20,107 nt of DNA from Candidatus Hermodarchaeota archaeon. GTDB lineage: Archaea; Asgardarchaeota; Lokiarchaeia; Sigyniarchaeales; SOKP01. Below, piece by piece: positions 2,350 through 18,675 of this stretch. Where the stretch lies: assembly GCA_048885925.1 (NCBI GenBank), contig JBHLLG010000051.1, positions 1 through 20,107 on the forward strand, in the 5' to 3' direction. The first letter of the stretch is position 1. Every line of letters begins with the position of its first letter. The notes below the pieces were generated by a model, which saw only the letters and a program-made list of their open reading frames with translations, was not told the DNA's origin and searched no databases. A program made the position numbers and the translations under genes.

Positions 2350-3543
2350 ATGGATGAGGAAGAATTTAGAAAACAGTTTCAAAAAAAATCAGTATTTAGA
2401 CAAGCGAGTTCTCTTGATTTAAGTTATGTACCAGATAAATTATATTGTCGAGATGAAGCTCTGAAAACATTAATTTTCAACTATAGAAGGATTTTAGAGG
2501 AAGAAGAACAACCATCTATAAATTGCTTAATATTAGGAAAAGGTGGTGTGGGGAAGACTTGTACTGCTAGATTTTTTGGAAGAACTTTTAGAACAATAGC
2601 AATTGAAAAAGATGTTAATTTATTTATTGAATATTTTAATTGCATCAATTTCCGCTCAAAAAGCAAGATTATCAGAGAGCTCCTTGCCAAATACCAACAC
2701 GGAAGTGGACGTGGCTTTAGTGATGACGAAAGCTTAAAGCTTATTCTCTCACAATTGATTCGGAAAAATAGCTATATGTTATTAGTAATTGATGAAATTC
2801 ATCTTTTAAAATCAGATGATGTTTTAGCATTTCTAGATATTGCCGAAACATTTGGCCATCAGAATGCGAAATTGTCCTTACTCTTAGTATCACGGAGTAA
2901 AGATTGGATGAATATTGAGACTGAGAGAATATTAAGCAGATTAAATGAAAAAATCATGCTTAAACCGTATACTTTTGATGAAGCTATGCAGATTTTACAA
3001 TATCGTAGTGAGATTGCTTTAAAAGAAAATGTGATTGATGATGAACTTCTTACGATGATCTCACAAATTGTAGTAGATCACAAAAATATGAGACACGGCA
3101 TTGAAATTATTAGAAAAAGTGGTTCATATTGTGATAAGGAGGATCTAGGTCGCATTACAGCAGATATAGTAAGAGAAGCGTCCAATGACGTATATCCTAC
3201 TTTTAGAAATGATATTGTTGATCAATTAAATGATCAAGAGTTGTTAGCATTATACGGAATTGTACGTTCATTAATTAATAAAGATGAACCATTCACTTTA
3301 GTTGACGATGCATTTGAAGAGTATGAAGCAATATGTGAAGCTTATTCACAAGAGCCACATGTTAAAATGAGTTTTAGAAAATATGTACGACAGCTTACTA
3401 TATTAAAAATTGTTACTTCTAAAACAGTAAGAATCGAAGATGCTACACGAGGGAGACATCTTGAGATAACCTTGCTGGATATTCCGGCAAGAAAGTTGCT
3501 CGAATTATTAGAAGAAATTTTTGAAAGAAAGTTCCGTTCTTAA
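2350..3543 (+). CDS. cdc6: Orc1/Cdc6 family AAA+ replication initiator
   Basis: LDLSYVPDKLYCR N-terminal signature, Walker A GKGGVGKT, YFNC, Walker B LLVIDE, RILSRL arginine-finger region, PYT, and a C-terminal winged helix ending in ..TRGR... Confidence 0.92.
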   Translation: MDEEEFRKQFQKKSVFRQASSLDLSYVPDKLYCRDEALKTLIFNYRRILEEEEQPSINCLILGKGGVGKTCTARFFGRTFRTIAIEKDVNLFIEYFNCINFRSKSKIIRELLAKYQHGSGRGFSDDESLKLILSQLIRKNSYMLLVIDEIHLLKSDDVLAFLDIAETFGHQNAKLSLLLVSRSKDWMNIETERILSRLNEKIMLKPYTFDEAMQILQYRSEIALKENVIDDELLTMISQIVVDHKNMRHGIEIIRKSGSYCDKEDLGRITADIVREASNDVYPTFRNDIVDQLNDQELLALYGIVRSLINKDEPFTLVDDAFEEYEAICEAYSQEPHVKMSFRKYVRQLTILKIVTSKTVRIEDATRGRHLEITLLDIPARKLLELLEEIFERKFRS

Positions 3544-3638
3544 AAAAAAATGTTAATTTTGCTAACAATAAGACTCTGTTTTAAATTATAACTAAATAGA
3601 ATTCACTTATAAGACATAAATTCTTTAATTTTTTACTA

Positions 3639-3898
3639 TTAATAATTTTCTTTGTCAGATTTTGAGGAGGAAAACCATTCTAACCATTCTTTTCGACGAT
3701 TCTTCTGTTTTTGCACTTGATCCACATCTGATATATTCTCATTTCTTACTTTTTGCCAATACATATCTAATTCGTGTCTTGACAGCGACAATCCACAAGA
3801 TTGACATACTACTTGTTTTATGGCTGAATGGTATTTCATAAAGCCTCCGCATTTCAGGTATAGGCAACAAGCCGCTAACTTTCTGGGCATCGAGCCAT
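3639..3898 (-). CDS. Small Zn-ribbon protein, spliced: complement(join(3639..3851,3881..3898)), 76 aa MARCPECGGFMKYHSAIKQVVCQSCG...KEWLEWFSSSKSDKENY
   Basis: ATG at 3898, with SD-like AGGATGGT upstream, reads MARCPES*. Removing 3880-3852 joins CCA GAA to TGC GGA and gives a complete CPEC...CQSC zinc ribbon. The ORF-track start (3890) lacks the first CxxC. Confidence 0.8.
3852..3880 (-). other. Putative 29-nt bulge-helix-bulge (BHB) pre-mRNA intron
   Basis: mRNA fold: exon helix UGC/GCG, central helix CCAG/CUGA (one C.A mismatch), 3-nt bulges AAA (3882-3880) and AAU (3853-3851), intron stem GU/AC, UAG/CUA, GC/GC. Cutting after bulge nt 2 removes exactly 29 nt and restores the frame. Confidence 0.78.
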
Positions 3899-4048
3899 TA
3901 AAATACCATCCTATTTTTCTTTCTGAGTCATTATTGTATTTATATATTATATTAATAGAATTAATTAGTGTTAAAATATTTTTTGACTCAAATTATTAAC
4001 TTTAATTATTTGAATAAATTTAAAAGAATATATTTAATCTGAAAATAA

Positions 4049-5269
4049 ATGAAGTCGGATGTATTTTATTTTACAGCTCGAACTCACACCCATAAACAGA
4101 GTATGAGTAAATTCAAGGGTCCTTTAGCATTAGAAAAGCTAGGAATTCAGAAAAGAGTTAAAAAAGGGGATAACATAGTAATAAAAACACATTTTGGAGC
4201 TTTAGAAAACACTAGATACCTTCGTCCAAGTTATATACGATTTTTATGTGATTATGTAAAGGAGTTGGGAGGTAATCCTTTTGTGGCAGAATCTTGTGGA
4301 TGGGGTGTTCCAGAGAGTATATCAGGAAATCATACAGAATATTCAGGAAGAGCAACAGAAGAAGAATATCTATTAGATGCCCTTCTTCATGGTTTTTCTC
4401 CGGAAACTATGGGAGCTCCTATTTTAATGTTAGATGGAAAGGATGGAACTGATATTGAAGTACAAAAAATTAAAGGAAAGTTATTTACAGAAGTTTTAGT
4501 TGCTGGTCGTTTAAGAGAGTTTGAACATATGATTCTAGCAACTCATTTTAAGGGACATGCTGGTGCTGGTTTTGGAGGAGCAATAAAGAACCTTGGAATT
4601 GGATGTGTGAGTAAAGGAGGTAAGGTTGAAGCACACACAGGTAAGACTTTTGAATTTGATTTTGATAATTGCAATCCAGATTGTATGAATTGTATTAATA
4701 TCTGCCCTACAAATGCTTTAACTAAAGATAATAATGATAAGTTGAAATTTAATGAAGATCAATGTAAATTTTGTTATATGTGTGCGTCAGTATGTAAAGA
4801 TAAAGTAATTCATATTGGGAGTGTTTCACGTGATGAATTCATTACCCAATTGGTTGATAATGCCAAAGGTGTAGTTGATTACTTTGGTAAAGATAAAATC
4901 TTTTATATCAATTATGCTATAGATATAACCTATCAATGTGATTGTTGTGGTGGTACAGATATTCCGTTTGTTCCAGATATTGGGATTTTGGCATCTTTGG
5001 ATCCTGTGGCTGTTGATCAAGCAACTGTAGATCTTGTACATAAATCTTCAATTATACCTCATTCTGTTCTTTCTGAATTAGAGGGTGTTCCTACTAAAGG
5101 ACCTCATGATTGGTTTTCTCATACACCTCGTTTTGATCCCAAGAATGGAGAAATGGATTTCAGTGGGAAAGAATCAAAGCACTGGGAATTACAATTGAAA
5201 TTAGCCGAAGAAATTGGTTTAGGAACAAGAGATTACAATTTAGTTGAAATAAAAATTGAGTTAGATTAA
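4049..5269 (+). CDS. DUF362 family Fe-S protein with an inserted 2x[4Fe-4S] ferredoxin domain
   Basis: IKTHFG, THFKGHAGAGFGGAIKNLGIGC, CxxxCxxCxxxCP and CxxCxxCxxxC, CDC, and DIGILASLDPVAVDQA motifs. Confidence 0.88.
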   Translation: MKSDVFYFTARTHTHKQSMSKFKGPLALEKLGIQKRVKKGDNIVIKTHFGALENTRYLRPSYIRFLCDYVKELGGNPFVAESCGWGVPESISGNHTEYSGRATEEEYLLDALLHGFSPETMGAPILMLDGKDGTDIEVQKIKGKLFTEVLVAGRLREFEHMILATHFKGHAGAGFGGAIKNLGIGCVSKGGKVEAHTGKTFEFDFDNCNPDCMNCINICPTNALTKDNNDKLKFNEDQCKFCYMCASVCKDKVIHIGSVSRDEFITQLVDNAKGVVDYFGKDKIFYINYAIDITYQCDCCGGTDIPFVPDIGILASLDPVAVDQATVDLVHKSSIIPHSVLSELEGVPTKGPHDWFSHTPRFDPKNGEMDFSGKESKHWELQLKLAEEIGLGTRDYNLVEIKIELD

Positions 5270-5375
5270 TAGACTTTTATTTATTGTTTTTTACCTATAA
5301 TTTTTTTTCCTTAATATTAAAAAAAAATTAAAAAATTGAAAGAGCAGATAAAAATTAACTTTTCTCCAAACTAAA

Positions 5376-6821
5376 TTATTTAATATCCAAAATTTCTTTT
5401 ATAAGTTTTTTCTTTTCATCAAAATTCGCTTGTCTAGATATCACAATTCTCTGTGCCATAGGACTACCTGCCCCATGCATGGATTCGGTTCTATAACTTA
5501 CAGATGCTACGCCCATCGTTAAATTCTCTATAAATCTTAATACTTTATACCTATCTTCTGCACATATTCCTTCGCATGTAGTTAAATACTTTTCGATCAA
5601 TGGACCTATCTCTTTTGATTTAATATCTGCCTCAGAGGGCATAGTACATATTATTCCTCCGGCTAAATCTTCAGCTAATCTTCCTATTTCGTAAGGAAAT
5701 CTGGTAACATTTTGTTTGCATACATTAGCTAACAACATATCCATTTCATAATTACCTGCTTCTCTTTGGAAACCCAATGAGCTACAAGCAATACCACAGC
5801 TATATAAAGTCTCATTTAGATGAGTCATTTCAACAAGTTTATCTCTTACATGAGATGCATTTTCTGTGCCATTATATTCAGAAATTAGGGCTGTTGCCCC
5901 TATAAGCGCATCACCAACTCCCACTTTACATCCACCATAAGATTGTCTGTGATATCCAGCAAAACGATTTACCAATTCTCCTGAGAAGTCAATTTCACCT
6001 TTCATAAAAATATTTTCTTTAGGAATAAAAACATCATCAAATACTACAAATATCTCTTGACCACCATATTTAAAATTCCCAATATCCAAACTTCCTTCTT
6101 CCATCTTTCGAGTATCACAAGATTGTCTTCCATATATCAACGTTATTCCCTTTTCAGTGGTATTAATACCGAAACTTACAGCATATTGTTCTTCACCAGG
6201 TCTTAATGCTAGAGTTGGCATAACTATTGCTCTATGAGAGTTAAGGAATCCAGTTTGATGAACTTTAGCACCTCTAACTATGATACCATCATCATTTTCA
6301 TCAACAATATGTAAATACGCATCAGGGTCTGGTTGATCTTTTGGTCTTTTGCTTCTATCACCCTTAGTATCTGTCATTGCCCCATCAACCATAAGATCTT
6401 GTGTTTGAACTTCGATCCAATATTTTTTGAAGCGTTCATGATAATCTGAGTTATATTTTTTATCCATTTCATAAGTTATACTATATAAAGCATTGGCAGT
6501 ATCAAAACCTACACATCTTTGGAAACAACAAGCAGTCTTTTGTCCAAGTAATCGTTGCATTTTTACTTTTTTAATCAAATCATCTACAGATTGATGAATA
6601 TGTGTAAATCTGTTTATTGTTTGACCTGTTAAATGAGAAGTAGCTGTCATAATATCTTTATACTCATCCATAAGTGCTAATTCATAAATTTTCATTACTG
6701 TATTAATAGAGGGTTTTATAATAGGATGATTCCAAAAATCCTTGACTTTTTTTCCAAACAAATATAAATTTCTTGGATGTTTTATACTCTCTAAATACTC
6801 TTCAGGGGTTTTTAATGGCAT
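5376..6821 (-). CDS. abfD: 4-hydroxybutyryl-CoA dehydratase / vinylacetyl-CoA isomerase
   Basis: CFQRCVG and HRQSYGGCK carry the Cys/His [4Fe-4S] ligands; also AMTDTKGDRS and ESMHGAGSP. Confidence 0.92.
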   Translation of the reverse strand: MPLKTPEEYLESIKHPRNLYLFGKKVKDFWNHPIIKPSINTVMKIYELALMDEYKDIMTATSHLTGQTINRFTHIHQSVDDLIKKVKMQRLLGQKTACCFQRCVGFDTANALYSITYEMDKKYNSDYHERFKKYWIEVQTQDLMVDGAMTDTKGDRSKRPKDQPDPDAYLHIVDENDDGIIVRGAKVHQTGFLNSHRAIVMPTLALRPGEEQYAVSFGINTTEKGITLIYGRQSCDTRKMEEGSLDIGNFKYGGQEIFVVFDDVFIPKENIFMKGEIDFSGELVNRFAGYHRQSYGGCKVGVGDALIGATALISEYNGTENASHVRDKLVEMTHLNETLYSCGIACSSLGFQREAGNYEMDMLLANVCKQNVTRFPYEIGRLAEDLAGGIICTMPSEADIKSKEIGPLIEKYLTTCEGICAEDRYKVLRFIENLTMGVASVSYRTESMHGAGSPMAQRIVISRQANFDEKKKLIKEILDIK

Positions 6822-6929
6822 TTCTTTATAAATTGTGTAATTTTCTGTTATTTAATAAAAAATCTATTAATTATTAAAAATAACTCTAATATTTGTAAAC
6901 AATTTTTTTATTTCTAAATAATTTGCTTT

Positions 6930-7841
6930 TTAGAGAGTATCTTCTTGATCAGTAACTTGATCATAATTTTTGGAGTTTTTCTCGAGATAACTAATCCTTT
7001 TTTCTAAAATTGTCATCGTCTCTATAATATTATTTAGCACTTTATTAGTCTCTCTGATTTCATATTGAAGATCTCCGAGTTGATTAAGTAAAAATGTCAA
7101 AACTTTAGATTCTTTGACTGGTTCTGTTAACCAATTAATAATATTTTGTATTAACTTTCGATTATCCAAAGAATTTATACCTATCTGTGAATTTGAAGTA
7201 AATATGTCTATATCACCGAGTACAACAATTTTTCCTTGTCCAAATTCAGCATAAGCTCCAATAATATGTTGTTTTTCTTCTTCCTTTGTCCATTCTTGAG
7301 AAGTATTGTTATAAATTTCTGACCAAACAGAATGTTCATTTGTTTTTAATATTGGTTTTACCCCTTTACTTAAAAATAAGGAACAAGAGCCTCCGATTAC
7401 AACTTCTCTCAAATTTTTTGTAATCTGATGCTTTAAAAAATCTTGGAGATGTAGGATACTTGAACAATTTTGGTTGGTATGATTCGCTTCTTTAATAATA
7501 TTTTTCTCAAAAAAGATACCAAATTTTCCTGCAATATCATTCAAATTGGTTTTTTGAAGATAATCCGCACCATATTCGCTCAATAGTAATAATCCACCAC
7601 CACTTCTAACATAATCCACAATATTTTTAATTTCTAAGCTTGAAAAAAAATCATCAATTGGATTACCAATAATCAATAGATCTATATTTTCTAATAATTC
7701 TTTTGTAATTTGGCCATTTTCGTTCTTTTTAATCTTAACATCTAATCTTTTTAGAAGATTTGTAAACTCCTTAAATTCTTCATCATTTGGGTTTAACATT
7801 TCATTATGAGTGAGATCAATTAGAACCGTCTTCTTTAACAT
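6930..7841 (-). CDS. GIFT (GldG/IFT52)-like, class I glutamine-amidotransferase-fold domain with a C-terminal coiled coil
   Basis: VLIDLTHNE start, DLLIIGNP, YVRSGGGLLLL, TNLNDIAGKFGI, GKIVVLGDIDIF and DNRKLIQNIINWL match the GIFT/DUF4350 pattern. The C-terminal tail is heptad-rich. Confidence 0.7.
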   Translation of the reverse strand: MLKKTVLIDLTHNEMLNPNDEEFKEFTNLLKRLDVKIKKNENGQITKELLENIDLLIIGNPIDDFFSSLEIKNIVDYVRSGGGLLLLSEYGADYLQKTNLNDIAGKFGIFFEKNIIKEANHTNQNCSSILHLQDFLKHQITKNLREVVIGGSCSLFLSKGVKPILKTNEHSVWSEIYNNTSQEWTKEEEKQHIIGAYAEFGQGKIVVLGDIDIFTSNSQIGINSLDNRKLIQNIINWLTEPVKESKVLTFLLNQLGDLQYEIRETNKVLNNIIETMTILEKRISYLEKNSKNYDQVTDQEDTL

Positions 7842-7947
7842 TTTTTTTAAATCCCAAATGACAATTAGCTTAGTTTTCTTTTAGAAAGGGCTTTTTTATT
7901 ATGATAACGTAATAAAATAAAGTTAAGACTTACAAGAAAATTCAAAT

Positions 7948-7974
7948 ATAAAAATCATTACCTATGATTTTTAT
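7948..7974. promoter_or_regulatory. Perfect 11-5-11 inverted repeat (ATAAAAATCAT tacct ATGATTTTTAT) in the divergent promoter region
   Basis: Arms 7948-7958 and 7964-7974 are exact reverse complements, midway between the divergent GIFT-like gene and purA. Confidence 0.45.
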
Positions 7975-8077
7975 TTCCGTTCCAACCTACCAAAAATTTT
8001 TTAAACTGTATACAATACTCTTTTTTGGATTAAAATAAGAAATTGATTATACAAAAAAATCAAAAGGAATATGAGAC

Positions 8078-9410
8078 ATGAGTAATACTATTGCTGTTAT
8101 AGGCCTTTCGTGGGGAGAATAGTTGAGCAGTTCGCATACTATCCCTATACGAAGGCAAAGGCAAATTTGTTGATTTTTTAGCACAGAAAGTGGATATAGT
8201 TGTTAGATATAATGGAGGAAATAATGCAGGTCATACGATAAATGCTAATGGAATCAAATATAAATTTAAATTAATGCCTTCAGGAGCTCCCTTAGAAAAA
8301 GAAGGAGTAATAGCTAATGGCTGTGTCGTTGATCCAAAAGTTTTAATTGAAGAAATTGAAAATCTCAAGAAATTAAACAAATCGATAAACTTAAAATTAA
8401 GTTCTACAGCTCATGTAATTTTTCCCTTTCATCGCATTTTAGATGGATTAGAAGAAAAAACAAAAGGTGATTATGCTGCAGGTACCACTAAGAGAGGAAT
8501 CGGTCCTGCATATTCTGATAAAGCAGCTCGCTGGGGTTTAAGAATCTTTGACTTGGTAAATCCTGAAATATTAAAACCAAAGCTAGAAAAATTATTTAAA
8601 ATTAAAAAAGACCTTATACATGTTTATGATCCAAGTTGGGTTGGTAATTTTGAAACGATTTATGAAGAATATAAGTCTTATGGGGAAAAATTAAAACCTT
8701 ATGTTATTGATACGGCTTATTACTTGAATAAGGTTATTGATTCTGGTAAAAAAGTTCTTTTTGAAGCAGCTCAAGGGAATCTTTTAGCACTTGATTTTGG
8801 GATGTATCCATATGGGACTTCTTCTAATGCTAATGCTTTAGGTATTTGTGCTGGAACAGGTATACCCCCAAAAAAAATTGGAAAAATAATAGGAATAGTG
8901 AAAGCATATACCTCACGGGTTGGTGAGGGTAAATTTCCCACAGAATTATTCAATGATATAGCTGAAAAAATTCGGGAGCAAGGTAAAGAATACGGTACTG
9001 TAACTGGAAGACCTAGAAGAGTAGGATGGTTAGACCTTTTTAATATTAAATATGGAATGATTATTAATGGTGTTGATAAAATTGTTATTACTCTTTTAGA
9101 TGCTTTGCAAGGAGTTAATCCTATTAAAATATGTACTGGTTATAAATTAGATGGTGAAGTTCTCGAAAGTTGGCCAATTCAACATGAGATAATTGAAAAA
9201 TGTACTCCCATTTATAGAAGTTTTGAAGGTTGGAGTGAAATATCTAGAGAAAAATGGAGAGAAATCGCAAAGAAGGGGTATGATGCATTACCAAGTACTA
9301 TGAAAATATACCTTCAAGCAATTAAGGAAGAGCTTAAAACGGATATTGCAATGATTTCAATTGGTCCTGATCGAGAAGAAACTATAGTTTTAGATTCTAA
9401 TATTTGTTAA
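8078..9410 (+). CDS. purA: Adenylosuccinate synthetase, spliced: join(8078..8117,8149..9410), 433 aa
   Basis: ATG 8078 reads MSNTIAVIGLSWGE*. Removing 31 nt gives MSNTIAVIGLSWGDEGKGKFVDFL..., the PurA P-loop, continuous with GGNNAGHT, GTTKRGIGPAY and EYGTVTGRPRRVGW. The ORF-track start at 8190 lacks the P-loop. Confidence 0.93.
8118..8148 (+). other. Putative 31-nt relaxed BHB (BHL-type) pre-mRNA intron splitting the catalytic Asp codon (G|AC)
   Basis: Central helix GGGG(8112-8115)/CCCU(8143-8146), bulges AGA (8116-8118) and AUA (8147-8149), intron stem AUAGU/ACUAU, exon helix UUCG/CGAA plus GCC/GGC with U8111 unpaired. Cutting after bulge nt 2 removes 8118-8148 and regenerates GAC. Confidence 0.82.
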
Positions 9411-9490
9411 AAAGAGTAGGTTTAAAACTTTACGACTAAAACCAACATTTTTATTTACTTTTTTCAAAATAAGGAGAATACTAAAAATCA

Positions 9491-10003
9491 TTATAAAGTT
9501 CTTAATTTGAATTCTTTACCACAATAATAACAGTGTGCTATCCCTGTTGATATTAATAATTGTTCCATAGATTTAGTAGTTTTTTGTCCGCACTCTGTAC
9601 AATAACTAGGAATTTTTATATTGTTGTTAACAGTAAAATTTTTGTTGTATATGCTGGGAATTACTTGAATTTCAGTAATCTTTGGAGGTTCTTTCTTTTC
9701 TTTTCGAGGTTTACCAGTAATTGCGTAATATAATGCTTCGAATAATTTGTACATACCTAAAAAAAGAAATTTTAACAGATAATAAATTCCTTTAAAAAGA
9801 TAATATAATAAATAACCAACTCCCTTTAAAATGTAATAAACTAAAATAAGCACTAATATGGTGAGTGCTATAAGCCCAATAATTAATAATACTTGCCCAA
9901 ATAAAGGTAAATTTAAATACCATCCAATTGGATCATCCCATATTACATTCCAAGGACTTTGAAATATACTCCAATCGATCATATTCTTGAAATCAACATT
10001 CAT
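9491..10003 (-). CDS. Hypothetical membrane protein with a C-terminal Zn ribbon
   Basis: Hydrophobic segment at about aa 34-59, a Tyr/Leu-rich periodic helix, then CTEC...CYYC. Confidence 0.75.
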   Translation of the reverse strand: MNVDFKNMIDWSIFQSPWNVIWDDPIGWYLNLPLFGQVLLIIGLIALTILVLILVYYILKGVGYLLYYLFKGIYYLLKFLFLGMYKLFEALYYAITGKPRKEKKEPPKITEIQVIPSIYNKNFTVNNNIKIPSYCTECGQKTTKSMEQLLISTGIAHCYYCGKEFKLRTL

Positions 10004-10096: not shown

Positions 10097-10657
10097 TTAT
10101 TTAAAACAAATTAATCCGAACCGATAAACATAATTACTAGGTGGCCATTCAATTTTCAGATTTAATCTTTGAACGGTTTCTGTAACATCTATTCCTATGG
10201 CTTCCATTGAATATCTTTTTTTATTGGGATACCGACAAGGCTTACCTGAGTCATATGTACATCCCCTATCTACCTCATTAAAGCAAATTCGGCAAAATCC
10301 ATCCCATAAAATAAATTTTTCATTATAGGAATATTGATAAGTTTCAATAAATATATAAATTTCTTCTTCTAATTCATCCCGTAAGAAATTATTCATGAAA
10401 AGCTTATTCTTGATACGCTTTTTACTTTTTTTTGGGTGTTTTGATTTCTGTTTTTTAATATATTCATTTAAATCAAGAATAGAATAAATGAGATAAAATT
10501 TTGTATATTGAGAAATGTCTTTTTCTAAATATGGAGCTACTGGTGGACAAGCCCAAGAATGTCCATAACTAGGACATTTAAAATTAGGATTAACGCAATA
10601 AGTTTGCACTTTGGGATCAAAAACTATATCGCTTAAATTTATTTCTAGGAAAGGCAA
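10097..10657 (-). CDS. DUF2284 family predicted metal-binding protein
   Basis: IVFDPKVQTYC...CPSYGHSWACPP, GFCRIC, C...PCRYP, and RYSMEAIGIDV. The TTG start is uncertain. Confidence 0.8.
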   Translation of the reverse strand: MPFLEINLSDIVFDPKVQTYCVNPNFKCPSYGHSWACPPVAPYLEKDISQYTKFYLIYSILDLNEYIKKQKSKHPKKSKKRIKNKLFMNNFLRDELEEEIYIFIETYQYSYNEKFILWDGFCRICFNEVDRGCTYDSGKPCRYPNKKRYSMEAIGIDVTETVQRLNLKIEWPPSNYVYRFGLICFK

Positions 10658-16994: not shown

Positions 16995-17157
16995 TTTATT
17001 TTCGATCGTAGAATTTTAAAAAAATAATATTAGAAGTATTATATATTTTTAAGCATAATGTTAAATACTGATTTTATTTATCATAATTTTCTTTAAACTT
17101 GTTTTTATTAAAAGATTATGTTATAAAAGTATTATAAAACAAATTTCTTTCCTTAAC

Positions 17158-18480
17158 CTAAATTTTATAACCACATTTAGAACATTTCATATGTTGTGAA
17201 TCTATACGCGTTCCGCATTGAGGACATATAATAAAACTTGGTTTCTCTTTAGATCTTCCCTTAGGAGTGAGCTTTATTTCTTGTAGTTTTGTTTTCTCTC
17301 TTATTGGAGTATTCTTGCTTGGTTTAAAAGTTGTTGATGTGCTTTTTTCATAGACTATTTTATCACCTTCTTTCTTTATCGTATAGATTTTTCCAAAAAA
17401 TCCACCAATTCTAATGGTCTTAATTTCTTCAAATTCTAAATCGCTTTTTTGATCTATTAAGGGACATTCTTCTTTTTTTAAGGTATCATCTAAAGTAAGC
17501 TCTTCTTTTTTAGAAATTACTTGTGTTCTATAGTCAAGAATTTCCTCTTTCATATATTCCTTAACACTTTCTACTTCAACCTCTCCACTTACCTTTATAA
17601 TTTCATCTTCCTCTATCTTAAGAAGTACGTCACATTCACTATTTGGACAACGGAAAATATTGGGTATACCTATATTGTTATTAATTACATAATTTGTAAT
17701 ACAGCAATTATGAAAACCTGTATTGCAATCTTCACATATTAAAGGAATATCGTAGATATCAGTACAAACTGGGCATATTTCTTCATTACAAAAATAGCAT
17801 TCAAAGCTCATCTCTTCTGATTTCATCAATGATTTTGCTAAATGATTGTAAAAAGCGTAATCTTCCTTACTGATCTTAATTCGATCGGGTTGATCAGCAA
17901 ATGTAACCACATATTGCTTGCTTTTAACTAATTTCTTAATTACTTCAGAAAATTCTTTTTTATTTTGAATGTAAAAAATTCCTCCCTTCGTATCACTAGC
18001 AAGCATATTTAGTTTTACATCATCACTGTAAAATCGTTTTTCTTTTTCCGATACTCTAATAATGTCTATAAATGTGGGGAAATTCTTTATTTTAGAAACT
18101 AAATTGAATAATGCTTCTTGATATTCTTCAGATAAATCTGATGGAGTATCGGTAATAACAATTATTCTATTAAATTTAGCTTTTTTCCTTACAGTTTCAG
18201 CAATGTAAGAAAAAATGTAAAATAATCCATTTTCGAAAAAGCTTTTTCCTTTAGGGCGGTTTCCCCAATTTTCTTCAATAGAGTTCGTGATTATTGTAGA
18301 ATCTTTTTTATCAGTCAAAAAGATAGGATTTCCTTCTTCTTGGAAAATTAGGAGAGCATAATGTCCTTTTATATTAACTTTGTTTTTCTCCTCAATATAA
18401 TATCTAATATTTTTTACAATTTCCTTTTTTCTCAATAAATCCTTAGTTAAGTCTAAGTAAATATAAACATCTTCATTCAT
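17158..18480 (-). CDS. vWA-like domain + Cys-rich RING/PHD-like finger + acidic linker + C-terminal Zn ribbon (paralogue 2)
   Basis: Collinear with paralogue 1: VYIYLD, IIVITDTP, FIDIIRV, LASDTKGGIFY, CYFC-CPVC-CEDC-x3-FHNCC-CPNSEC, and CPQC...CSKC. Confidence 0.75.
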   Translation of the reverse strand: MNEDVYIYLDLTKDLLRKKEIVKNIRYYIEEKNKVNIKGHYALLIFQEEGNPIFLTDKKDSTIITNSIEENWGNRPKGKSFFENGLFYIFSYIAETVRKKAKFNRIIVITDTPSDLSEEYQEALFNLVSKIKNFPTFIDIIRVSEKEKRFYSDDVKLNMLASDTKGGIFYIQNKKEFSEVIKKLVKSKQYVVTFADQPDRIKISKEDYAFYNHLAKSLMKSEEMSFECYFCNEEICPVCTDIYDIPLICEDCNTGFHNCCITNYVINNNIGIPNIFRCPNSECDVLLKIEEDEIIKVSGEVEVESVKEYMKEEILDYRTQVISKKEELTLDDTLKKEECPLIDQKSDLEFEEIKTIRIGGFFGKIYTIKKEGDKIVYEKSTSTTFKPSKNTPIREKTKLQEIKLTPKGRSKEKPSFIICPQCGTRIDSQHMKCSKCGYKI

Positions 18481-18675
18481 TCACGTCACATTACTCTACC
18501 TAATTTTGGAAAGAATCTCCAATATTTATAATGATAATAATGATAGAACTTCCTTAAATATTTTTTAGAAAAGTATTATATTTGATATACAAAATAATTA
18601 TAAATAAAAACATACATGGCTTATATTTTTATATAAAATAGTTAAAAACACGCGAGATATTATGGTGAACAATGA

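What the first reader, a model, noticed from the sequence alone, without database searches (positions are those of the whole stretch)
3852..8148. Candidate system: tRNA-type (BHB) introns in ordinary protein-coding genes, two within 4.3 kb
Seen: two unrelated genes (purA and a Zn-ribbon gene) each carry a 29-31 nt insert within the first 14 codons. Each insert shifts the frame and places TAG within two codons of the 5' junction. Each folds with its exons into a BHB-like motif, and the canonical cut sites (after nt 2 of each 3-nt bulge) independently predict the exact deletion that restores a conserved motif. Established: archaeal EndA cuts BHB/BHL motifs and RtcB ligates; archaeal mRNA introns are known from very few genes, chiefly crenarchaeal cbf5. 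Inference: two cases among about 19 genes suggest that pre-mRNA splicing is widespread in this probably Asgard genome and hidden as truncated ORFs or pseudogenes. That would bear on the origin of eukaryotic introns and of IRE1/RtcB-type non-canonical mRNA splicing. No endA or rtcB gene is in this window.
Basis: partly seen in the sequence, partly recalled or inferred. Interest (0 to 1): 0.95.

Follow-up and report, generated by a model that had tools for sequence, protein, structure and literature searches.

The report
Tiny tRNA-type introns in Asgard genes
An Asgard archaeon carries roughly 30-base inserts, shaped like tRNA introns, inside at least nine ordinary and mostly essential protein genes, which suggests that its tRNA-splicing enzymes also splice messenger RNAs.

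Summary
Both inserts are real. A 31-nt insert (8118-8148, +) splits the P-loop codons of purA. A 29-nt insert (3880-3852, -) follows codon 6 of a 76-aa Zn-ribbon gene. DNA contigs from two other studies bridge them. Each sits at the identical site in about half of same-genus genomes (purA 9 of 21 loci, Zn-ribbon 11 of 22). The remaining loci, including all from other families examined, read straight through. Both sites have bulge-helix-bulge geometry: two 3-nt bulges around a 4-bp helix. Cutting after the second bulge base gives exactly the required deletion. The pairing is kept across species (89% and 83% of cells, against 28-48% in slid controls), with compensatory changes.

The genome is a Promethearchaeota (Asgard) MAG with one crenarchaeal-type EndA gene and one RtcB gene. 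Comparison with one whole relative genome found seven more such introns (28-32 nt): L11, aIF5A, RpoN, mevalonate kinase, a Ras-like GTPase, a JAB protease and a CO-dehydrogenase-family gene. That makes at least nine, about 0.3% of compared genes rather than 10%. Each intron has its own distribution in the genus.

No RNA data exist, so splicing is inferred. The searched literature reports only cbf5 and one Haloferax 5'-UTR intron.

The parts
8078..8117 (+). purA exon 1: ATG plus 12 codons plus the first base (G) of the split Asp codon
   Evidence: The same 13 codons precede the P-loop directly in intron-less relatives.
8118..8148 (+). purA intron, 31 nt, bulge-helix-bulge type. An in-frame TAG begins at its 3rd base.
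   Evidence: same site in 14 distinct sequences, absent in the others examined; structure; independent DNA contigs.
8149..9410 (+). purA exon 2: AC completes the Asp codon, followed by the rest of adenylosuccinate synthetase
   Evidence: PF00709, E 8.9e-152, profile positions 10-416 of 416; 78-88% identity to same-genus orthologues, no stops.
8105..8155 (+). purA splicing motif. Outer helix 8105-8110 with 8150-8155 (U8111 unpaired). Central 4-bp helix 8112-8115 with 8143-8146. 5' bulge 8116-8118, cut after 8117. Inner helix 8119-8123 with 8138-8142. 3' bulge 8147-8149, cut after 8148.
   Evidence: MFE fold; 89.2% of cells paired against 33-48% when slid; 4 pairs changed on both sides (3 of 500 shuffles reach this); p = 0.00015.
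3881..3898 (-). Zn-ribbon gene exon 1: ATG plus 5 codons (M-A-R-C-P-E), carrying the first Cys of a C-P-x-C knuckle
   Evidence: Nineteen intron-less loci read these six codons directly followed by the Cys-Gly-Gly codons.
3852..3880 (-). Zn-ribbon gene intron, 29 nt. An in-frame TAG begins at its 4th base.
   Evidence: (11 of 22 same-genus loci carry an insert here, 28-31 nt, in two unrelated sequence types), (X4 record 17 spans it).
3639..3851 (-). Zn-ribbon gene exon 2 (70 codons plus stop)
   Evidence: 64-89% identity in 21 other same-genus genomes; the intron-less 76-aa homologue gives only a weak Zn_ribbon_PriA hit, E 5.6e-4, below Pfam's cut-off.
3848..3889 (-). Zn-ribbon splicing motif. 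Outer helix 3889-3887 with 3850-3848. Central helix 3886-3883 with 3857-3854 (3 of 4 pairs). 5' bulge 3882-3880, cut after 3881. Inner helix 3879-3878 with 3859-3858. 3' bulge 3853-3851, cut after 3852.
   Evidence: 83.0% of cells paired against 28-38% when slid; outer helix 97.7% paired; p = 0.11 for this site alone.

Best explanation
The two inserts are archaeal bulge-helix-bulge (BHB) introns inside protein-coding genes.

Proposed mechanism, in order:
1. The gene is transcribed with the insert.
2. In the pre-mRNA, the last bases of the 5' exon pair with the 3' end of the intron to form a 4-bp helix. This helix is flanked by two 3-nt bulges and, in most cases, by an exon-exon helix and an intron-intron helix.
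3. The tRNA-splicing endonuclease EndA cuts after the second base of each bulge.
4. RtcB joins the exons, restoring the reading frame and a conserved motif. The roughly 30-nt intron is released, probably as a circle.
5. Unspliced mRNA meets a stop within 3-33 nt of the 5' junction and gives a useless peptide.

The same applies to at least seven other genes of this genome. The introns are gained and lost within the genus.

Shown: the DNA inserts, their exact sites, the conserved pairing geometry, intact genes on both sides, and the presence of EndA and RtcB genes.

Inferred: that cutting and joining take place, and that these two enzymes do it.
For: 1. Exact-site presence or absence.
- purA: 9 of 21 same-genus loci carry the insert and 12 do not. 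All 9 loci from other families lack it. Five more carriers appear among 15 further distinct records, including a 32-nt version in Loki_b32.
- Zn-ribbon: 11 of 22 same-genus loci carry it, 11 do not, and 8 of 8 from other families lack it.

2. Geometry.
- In 8 of the 10 introns studied, all 4 central pairs form in the canonical register.
- In 9 of 10, the protein-compatible register scored above all 12 flanking shifted registers. The tenth, JAB, also fits once its compatible registers are listed correctly.
- Fisher combination of the ten null p-values gives 6.6e-12.

3. Pairing is kept across species, with changes on both sides. Two unrelated Zn-ribbon intron sequences keep the same layout.

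4. A successful prediction. For RpoN the structure placed the cuts 2 nt from my homology guess. In six genomes that register gives Ser or Gly, both seen in intron-less relatives. My guess would give Cys in L238.

5. The genes stay intact. purA exon 2 is 78-88% identical over 415-419 aa with no stop in the carriers. purA gives a single match in this genome. aIF5A, L11 and RpoN match only as the two exon pieces of one split gene.

6. Enzymes. There is one EndA gene of 198 aa, nearest over its full length to PDB chains 3p1z_B and 3ajv_B, then 2cv8 and 2zyz_B. There is one RtcB gene. PMC5829648 (passages read) states that Asgard archaea have the heterotetrameric EndA with the L1 loop, which it links to broad substrate range.

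7. Seven more introns of 28-32 nt lie in conserved motifs of L11, aIF5A, RpoN, a GHMP (mevalonate) kinase, a Ras-family GTPase, a JAB/MPN protease and a Prismane/CO-dehydrogenase-family gene.

8. Independent DNA contigs span both window inserts.
Against: - No RNA evidence of any kind. No listed run holding this sequence is RNA, so no junction reads or circular introns could be looked for.
- Only one EndA-like gene was found. Pfam models PF01974 and PF02778 gave no second hit even at E <= 10. The beta subunit expected for the broad-specificity enzyme is therefore not identified.
- The Zn-ribbon site is not significant on its own (p = 0.11). Its MFE fold does not show the motif. An 83-aa ORF reads through the insert from another ATG.
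- Several motifs are relaxed. purA and aIF5A have one extra unpaired base next to the 3' bulge. JAB has no outer helix and the kinase has a 1-bp one. Zn-ribbon, RpoN and the kinase have 3 of 4 central pairs.
- A blind structural scan of the genome found no more BHB-like sites than a mirror-image decoy (1,389,919 against 1,387,339). It missed both window introns. The motif alone therefore has no predictive power here.
- For aIF5A, a 6-7-nt direct repeat flanks the insert, so ribosomal hopping would give the same protein.
Confidence: 0.85

Rival explanations
1. Translational bypassing (ribosome hopping, as in phage T4 gene 60). The ribosome takes off before the stop at the start of the insert and lands about 30 nt downstream, so no RNA splicing is needed.
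For: A stop lies 3-4 nt into both window inserts, and the inserts form hairpins. For aIF5A, a repeat of 6-7 nt flanks the insert, so a hop from one Ala codon to its copy would give the correct protein. The features of gene 60 are recalled, not taken from a call.
Against: In purA and the Ras-like GTPase the restored Asp codon is split by the insert (G|AC) and exists nowhere as a contiguous codon in frame, so hopping cannot encode it. In the Zn-ribbon gene, landing on the repeated Glu codon would put the ribosome one base out of frame. The intron in the small G021 gene has a unique register with no matching take-off and landing codons. Hopping does not explain why pairing between the exon and the intron's 3' end is conserved in BHB geometry.
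Confidence: 0.03
2. The inserts are removed from the RNA, but by something other than EndA and RtcB. Candidates are another endonuclease-ligase pair or a small self-cleaving structure. On this view the BHB-like look is partly coincidence.
For: Several sites are relaxed or lack the outer helix. No beta subunit was found. There are no biochemical data.
Against: The cut positions demanded by the proteins coincide with the canonical EndA positions in all ten introns. Intron lengths of 28-32 nt are too short for group I or II introns. Rfam finds nothing in the window. EndA and RtcB are both encoded, and the same route is established for crenarchaeal cbf5 (PMC2738675, passages read).
Confidence: 0.07
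3. The interrupted genes are pseudogenes or disabled alleles. The inserts are small insertions with no removal, and the function is lost or supplied otherwise.
For: Ordinary gene callers would report truncated or split ORFs. The Zn-ribbon gene keeps an open 83-aa frame through the insert.
Against: The carriers are many diverged species, yet both exons stay open and conserved. The affected genes include single-copy essentials: L11, aIF5A, RpoN and purA. Random insertions would not share a 28-32-nt length, BHB geometry at the exact junction and compensatory changes.
Confidence: 0.03
4. Assembly or binning artefact. The inserts are chimeric joins or errors of one metagenome assembly.
For: The genome is a 181-contig MAG with 4.4% estimated contamination.
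Against: Contigs from runs of other studies span both inserts without gaps. The same inserts, with sequence divergence, occur in many independently assembled MAGs.
Confidence: 0.01

Closest known systems
cbf5 pre-mRNA intron of Crenarchaeota (Desulfurococcales, Sulfolobales)
   Same: A BHB-like intron inside a protein-coding region, often with a relaxed motif. It is cut by a hetero-oligomeric EndA and shows lineage-specific loss (PMC2738675, passages read). The EndA here is most similar to the crenarchaeal catalytic chains in the PDB.
   Different: cbf5 is one gene. Here at least nine genes in one genome are affected, none of them cbf5 among those found. The lineage is an Asgard one, the introns are a uniform 28-32 nt, and they are strongly polymorphic between species of one genus. 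Splicing of cbf5 was shown experimentally, whereas here it is inferred.
[quoted passage not shown]
   Same: Same motif, same predicted cut rule (after base 2 of each 3-nt bulge), similar size, and repeated gains without evidence of a mobile element. The source is bioRxiv 10.64898/2026.10.13.758758 (abstract, outline and one passage read). ARAGORN predicts introns, often at unusual positions, in 19 of the 28 tRNA genes listed in the part of the output that I printed.
   Different: The host is an mRNA, so the exon side of the helices must also encode protein, and the result must keep the reading frame. That preprint does not contain the word 'mRNA'.
BHB intron in the 5' UTR of Haloferax volcanii HVO_1309
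   Same: A non-tRNA, non-rRNA substrate of EndA in an mRNA, confirmed there in vivo and in vitro (PMC7714728, passages read).
   Different: It lies in the untranslated leader, so it does not interrupt codons. It is a single case in a euryarchaeon.
Non-conventional cytoplasmic splicing of HAC1/XBP1 mRNA in eukaryotes (recalled, not from a call)
   Same: A short intron within a coding region is removed by a protein endonuclease at stem-loop sites and joined by a tRNA ligase (RtcB in animals), changing the reading frame.
   Different: The endonuclease there is IRE1, not the tRNA-splicing endonuclease. It affects one regulated target. No homology of the introns is implied.

Membership tests
Archaeal BHB (EndA-dependent) intron | Two 3-nt bulges on opposite strands separated by a 4-bp helix at the exon-intron boundaries | tested here: met
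   purA has 4 of 4 central pairs and the Zn-ribbon site 3 of 4. Of all ten introns, 8 have 4 of 4 and 2 have 3 of 4, or 3 if Zn-ribbon is counted with RpoN and the kinase.
Archaeal BHB (EndA-dependent) intron | Cutting after the second base of each bulge yields the functional mature RNA | tested here: met
   The canonical cuts equal the deletion that restores the frame and the conserved motif in all ten introns. For RpoN, the structure-derived register fits six genomes better than my homology guess.
Archaeal BHB (EndA-dependent) intron | Flanking helices (strict hBHBh' form) | tested here: inconclusive
   Strict in the CO-dehydrogenase-family gene, the Ras-like GTPase, RpoN, the small G021 gene and the Zn-ribbon gene. 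In purA and aIF5A the outer helix is offset by one unpaired base. In L11 the inner helix starts after a mismatch. The outer helix is absent or 1 bp in JAB and the kinase. These count as relaxed forms.
Archaeal BHB (EndA-dependent) intron | Pairing conserved in evolution | tested here: met
   (purA): 89.2% of cells paired against 33-48% when slid; 4 pairs with double changes. (Zn-ribbon): 83.0% against 28-38%.
Archaeal BHB (EndA-dependent) intron | Splicing endonuclease and RtcB ligase encoded by the organism | tested here: met
   EndA at C22:7684-8169. RtcB at C12:26362-27669. A beta subunit was not found with the Pfam models.
Archaeal BHB (EndA-dependent) intron | Excision seen in RNA (junction reads, free or circular intron) or in vitro cleavage | not testable with these tools
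   No RNA run holds the sequence.
Programmed translational bypass (gene 60 type) | Matching take-off and landing codons that give the right protein without RNA change | tested here: not met
   Impossible for purA and the Ras-like GTPase, where the Asp codon is split. It would be out of frame for the Zn-ribbon gene. There are no matching codons in the small G021 gene. It is possible only for aIF5A.
Self-splicing group I / group II intron | Ribozyme core of hundreds of bases | tested here: not met
   The inserts are 28-32 nt. Rfam finds no match in the window at gathering thresholds.

The most novel reading that the evidence does not exclude
In this Asgard genus the tRNA-splicing pair EndA-RtcB works as a true, essential mRNA-splicing system. 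Dozens of approximately 30-nt introns across the genus interrupt core genes of translation, transcription, nucleotide and lipid synthesis. They are being gained now: the aIF5A and CO-dehydrogenase-family introns were found in this species only. They are also lost precisely and repeatedly. The closest prokaryotic relatives of eukaryotes would then already have split protein genes whose expression depends on, and could be tuned by, protein-catalysed splicing. That route survives in eukaryotes as TSEN/RtcB-type non-conventional mRNA splicing.
Probability: 0.35. Interest if true: 0.95.

Novelty: new variant of a known kind. Interest (0 to 1): 0.86.

Why it matters
**State of the literature.** In the papers I could search, EndA-type introns in archaeal mRNAs are a curiosity. 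One coding-region case is described (crenarchaeal cbf5) and one 5'-UTR case (Haloferax). PMC7714728 states that only these are known.

**What is different here.** One Asgard genome carries at least nine, in genes such as ribosomal protein L11, aIF5A, RNA polymerase subunit N and purA. Different sets occur in sister species.

**Consequences if the splicing is confirmed:**
1. Asgard MAG annotation systematically mis-calls such genes as truncated, frameshifted or missing. This affects completeness estimates, metabolic reconstructions and phylogenomic marker sets.
2. The tRNA-splicing machinery is essential for mRNA expression in relatives of the eukaryotic ancestor. That makes questions about the early history of split genes and of protein-catalysed mRNA splicing directly testable.
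3. The within-genus polymorphism offers a natural series for studying how such introns arise and are lost. They are single-copy and unrelated in sequence, which argues against a simple mobile element.

Tried and rejected
**Blind structural scan.** I scanned both strands of the genome for relaxed BHB geometry with intron lengths of 12-110 nt. It gave 1,389,919 hits against 1,387,339 for a mirror-image decoy. There was no excess at any score, and it found neither window intron. I rejected it as a detector.

**RNA evidence.** No RNA holder is listed among 20 runs from 7 studies. I laid only DNA contigs.

**Outgroup comparison.** Only 400 kb of G031 could be fetched, and only 60 of its ORFs had a hit in G000. 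No new intron was found (the one strong row, 27 nt in frame, is an indel). The sample is uninformative.

**Screen for introns shared by G000 and G021.** I looked for conserved short upstream frames. Of 1874 raw candidates (nearly all C-termini of upstream genes), 26 passed the filters. Only purA looked like a real exon. The rest were AT-rich, low-complexity translations. Introns with a first exon under about 6 codons, or in poorly conserved genes, would be missed.

**Rows of the G021/G000 scan that I dropped.**
- In G000: C40 L19, C147 L14, C2 L17, C5 L13, C152 L129, C73 L28, C13 L98 and C154 L12. They showed poor DNA match, in-frame repeats or apparently non-coding sequence.
- In G021: every row except the 28-nt intron. 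The others were frameshift-like (L10, L20), in-frame repeats (L36, L24, L18, L12), runs of N, or noise.
- The L43 row in G021 is a 1-nt frameshift in a rubrerythrin-like gene.

**Mobile-element idea.** By blastn-short, each intron is single-copy in G000, and the introns are not alike. The best cross-match is 11 nt.

**'TAG near the junction' as a rule.** It is not general.

**Beta subunit of EndA.** Not found with PF01974 or PF02778 at E <= 10. I tried no other query.

**Papers.** Searches found no report of BHB introns in Asgard protein genes. Subscription journals and supplementary files were not visible.

Full report
**1. What is in the window.**

purA lies on the + strand and starts with ATG at 8078. 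After 13 codons and one base the frame is broken by 31 nt (8118-8148). Read straight on, it meets TAG 3 nt into the insert. From 8151 onward the sequence is a complete adenylosuccinate synthetase that lacks only the first 9 profile positions (PF00709, E 8.9e-152). Removing 8118-8148 joins G (8117) to AC (8149-8150). This rebuilds the Asp codon of the P-loop G-D-E-G-K-G-K. That this Asp is catalytic in the E. coli enzyme is recalled, not from a call.

A small gene on the - strand starts with ATG at 3898. It reads M-A-R-C-P-E, then 29 nt (3880-3852) with TAG beginning at the 4th base, then Cys-Gly-Gly and 67 more codons. An alternative ATG at 3890 opens an 83-aa frame through the insert. That product would lack the first Cys-Pro-x-Cys knuckle.

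**2. Are the inserts real DNA?**

Twenty public runs from 7 studies hold the stretch 3500-9500, none of them RNA. I laid contigs from four runs of four studies. X2 record 15 (7986-8434, no differences) and X4 record 23 (7927-8617) span the purA insert. X4 record 17 (3502-3968) spans the Zn-ribbon insert. None has a gap. A loose end at 8115 in X4 continues with an intron-less purA of different sequence, which I read as a relative in the same sample.

**3. Relatives.**

For purA I read 30 loci.
- Of 21 same-genus loci, 9 carry an insert at exactly this site: own, L004, L006, L007, L010, L011, L013, L014 and L020.
- The other 12 read the Trp-Gly-Asp-Glu codons without interruption.
- So do all 9 loci from other families.
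- Seven further matches had no locus and were not read.

Named records show the organism is a Promethearchaeota (Asgard) MAG lineage. Those 25 records comprised 10 duplicates and 15 distinct records. Five of the distinct records are further carriers: L064, L076, L078, L083 and L087. The last two have a 32-nt version.

In carriers whose insert begins with C or T, only one register restores Asp. This fixes the cuts as 8117|8118 and 8148|8149.

For the Zn-ribbon gene:
- 11 of 22 same-genus loci carry an insert of 28-31 nt after the Glu codon.
- 11 do not.
- 8 of 8 loci from other families do not.

L037 and L038 hold an unrelated insert sequence at the same site. L037 allows only one register, which I transferred to the window.

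On a FastTree tree of 34 purA sequences, intron presence needs at least 8 changes, at least 5 of them forced by well-supported branches. This is a gene tree, and I left out the more distant rows. The same site has therefore been emptied or filled repeatedly.

**4. Structure.**

The canonical archaeal motif reads, from 5' to 3':
- outer helix
- 4-bp central helix (5'-exon strand)
- 3-nt bulge
- inner helix and loop
- central helix (intron strand)
- 3-nt bulge
- outer helix

EndA cuts after the second base of each bulge. This layout is established knowledge, recalled here.

purA fits it:
- central helix 8112-8115 with 8143-8146, 4 of 4 pairs
- bulges 8116-8118 and 8147-8149
- a 5-bp inner helix
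- a 6-bp outer helix with one extra unpaired U (8111)

Over 12 carriers, 89.2% of cells pair, against 33-48% when the partner is slid by 1-3 columns. Four pairs change on both sides, and 3 of 500 shuffles reach that number.

The Zn-ribbon site has 3 of 4 central pairs, a 3-bp outer helix and a 2-bp inner helix. Over 11 carriers, 83.0% of cells pair, against 28-38% when slid. The outer helix is 97.7% paired. The L037 type pairs a different three of the four central positions. Taken alone, the window's Zn-ribbon site is not significant (p = 0.11). purA is (p = 0.00015).

**5. Is it a system?**

A blind scan for the motif was useless. I therefore compared the genome with one whole same-genus genome, G021 (2,265,924 bp). 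The method was a protein-anchored 'deletion scan': for each tblastn match, it looks for the missing neighbouring residues displaced by 10-150 nt in any frame. It recovered both window introns from intron-less relatives, including distant ones, with scores of 27-66.

Of 2651 G021 ORFs with a match, seven G000 loci showed strong, frame-breaking inserts absent from G021. Host genes were identified by Pfam.

| Host gene | Contig and strand | Coordinates | Length |
|---|---|---|---|
| Prismane/CO-dehydrogenase family | C4 (+) | 38336-38367 | 32 nt |
| Ras-family GTPase | C12 (-) | 62467-62497 | 31 nt |
| aIF5A (in the hypusine loop) | C13 (-) | 10203-10231 | 29 nt |
| Ribosomal protein L11 | C20 (-) | 5250-5277 | 28 nt |
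| RNA polymerase subunit N | C96 (-) | about 9379-9409 | 31 nt |
| GHMP (mevalonate) kinase | C37 (-) | 17154-17184 | 31 nt |
| JAB/MPN protease (just after its His-x-His motif) | C15 (-) | about 18539-18569 | 31 nt |

In the reverse direction, 2853 G000 ORFs gave one clear G021-only intron. It is 28 nt long, lies in a 67-aa protein, and has a unique register and a strict motif.

All ten introns place the protein-required cuts at the canonical bulge positions. Eight have 4 of 4 central pairs. Individual null p-values range from 0.00015 to 0.18, and their Fisher combination is 6.6e-12. I treat that figure as approximate for two reasons. The RpoN register set was widened after I had seen its structure.

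**6. A prediction that held.**

For RpoN the best structure has a 7-bp outer helix, 3 of 4 central pairs and a 4-bp inner helix. It put the cuts 2 nt downstream of the register I had inferred from G021. Six genomes carry this intron: G000, G001, G008, G016, G022 and G023, out of 21 same-genus genomes with a match. Fifteen same-genus genomes and 15 from other families read through it. In those six, the structural register gives Ser in five and Gly in this genome. Both residues occur in intron-less relatives. My first register would give Cys in L238.

**7. Distribution of the others.**

These counts come from split matches in 30 genomes of the genus. I read no loci for them.
- **aIF5A:** split only in this genome, of 24.
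- **CO-dehydrogenase-family gene:** split only here, of 20 with a match. G013 is unclear.
- **Ras-like GTPase:** split here and in G012, of 29.
- **JAB protease:** split in G000, G001, G004, G041 and G044. G005 has a 33-nt in-frame insert with stops.
- **Kinase:** the match starts at residue 14-16 in 12 genomes. Two more have a 30-nt insert with stops. Eight are uninterrupted.
- **L11:** split near residue 33-34 in at least seven genomes. A second site near residue 24-28 occurs in at least three. G009 and G015 have a 33-nt insert with two stops.

Intron content therefore differs from species to species, and some genes have more than one site.

**8. Enzymes.**

The genome has one EndA gene (198 aa, N- and C-terminal domains). 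Its best PDB matches over the whole length are 3p1z_B and 3ajv_B, then 2cv8, 5x89 and 2zyz_B. That these are crenarchaeal and Methanopyrus enzymes is recalled. There is one RtcB gene. PMC5829648 (passages read) reports that Asgard archaea have the (alpha-beta)2 enzyme with the L1 loop, which it links to recognition of relaxed motifs. I found no beta subunit with the Pfam models.

**9. Rivals.**

- **Ribosomal hopping** cannot make the split Asp codons of purA and the GTPase. It would be out of frame in the Zn-ribbon gene. It is compatible only with aIF5A.
- **Pseudogenes** are contradicted by intact, conserved exons in many species and by the essential, single-copy nature of several hosts.
- **Assembly error** is contradicted by the independent contigs and MAGs.
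- **Removal by another RNA enzyme** cannot be excluded without biochemistry.

**10. What is known.**

In passages I read, PMC2738675 describes cbf5 as the only confirmed case of archaeal pre-mRNA splicing and notes predictions in other genes. PMC7714728 adds one 5'-UTR intron in Haloferax and states that cbf5 was the only other example. A 2026 preprint (10.64898/2026.10.13.758758; abstract, outline and one passage read) documents heavy, repeatedly gained tRNA introns in Asgard archaea but does not mention mRNA. Six searches found no report of such introns in Asgard protein genes. Journals outside the library and supplementary files were not visible, so prior description elsewhere cannot be ruled out.

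**11. Verdict.**

The mechanism is a known one (BHB, EndA, RtcB) used at a scale and in a lineage not described in the literature I could search. The decisive gap is RNA or biochemical proof. Nine is a lower bound, because only one relative genome could be compared. Introns shared with it, introns with very short first exons, and introns in poorly conserved genes escape the scan.

Noticed in passing
G021 (loci L089-L090), genome position 39633-39660, + strand: A 28-nt strict BHB intron near the 3' end of a 67-aa protein gene, absent from the G000 orthologue (C1:227326-227526) and its paralogue. It is the only G021-specific intron found, so G021 looks intron-poor compared with G000.
   Followed up: yes
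Ribosomal protein L11 gene across the genus (G000 C20:4858-5374): At least two distinct split points (about residue 33-34 and about residue 24-28), plus a 33-nt in-frame insert with two stops in G009 and G015. This suggests several independent intron sites in one small gene.
   Followed up: partly
window 3639-3890, - strand: An 83-aa frame from a second ATG reads through the Zn-ribbon intron in the frame of exon 2. An unspliced transcript could therefore yield a variant protein without the first Cys-Pro-x-Cys knuckle. The frame is closed or differs in relatives with other intron sequences; I did not check this systematically.
   Followed up: no
window 6930-7841, - strand: A 303-aa protein with a Pfam match to the GIFT domain of intraflagellar-transport protein IFT52 (PF23355, E 1.3e-13) and weaker matches to ABC_transp_aux and DUF4350.
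   Followed up: no
window 8115 in run X4 (table 7): A contig leaves the window sequence just before the purA intron and continues with an intron-less purA of different sequence. A related intron-less organism appears to share the sample.
   Followed up: no
G000 whole genome: ARAGORN predicts introns in 19 of the 28 tRNA genes listed in the first 100 output lines. Many are at unusual positions and some have implausible lengths (146 and 1335 nt). I did not curate these calls.
   Followed up: no
G000 and the genus: A 180-aa Ras-domain query gives 58 matches in G000 and 35-70 in each genome of the genus, a large small-GTPase family.
   Followed up: no
G021 about position 60210 on the + strand (reverse-strand index 2205714): The rubrerythrin-like gene of G021 has a single extra G that shifts the frame. 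This is a sequencing error or a true frameshift, not an intron.
   Followed up: partly
JAB gene in G005, kinase gene in G020 and G042: Inserts of 33 or 30 nt that keep the frame but contain stop codons, at or near the sites split in other genomes. Intron length is thus not constrained to break the frame.
   Followed up: no
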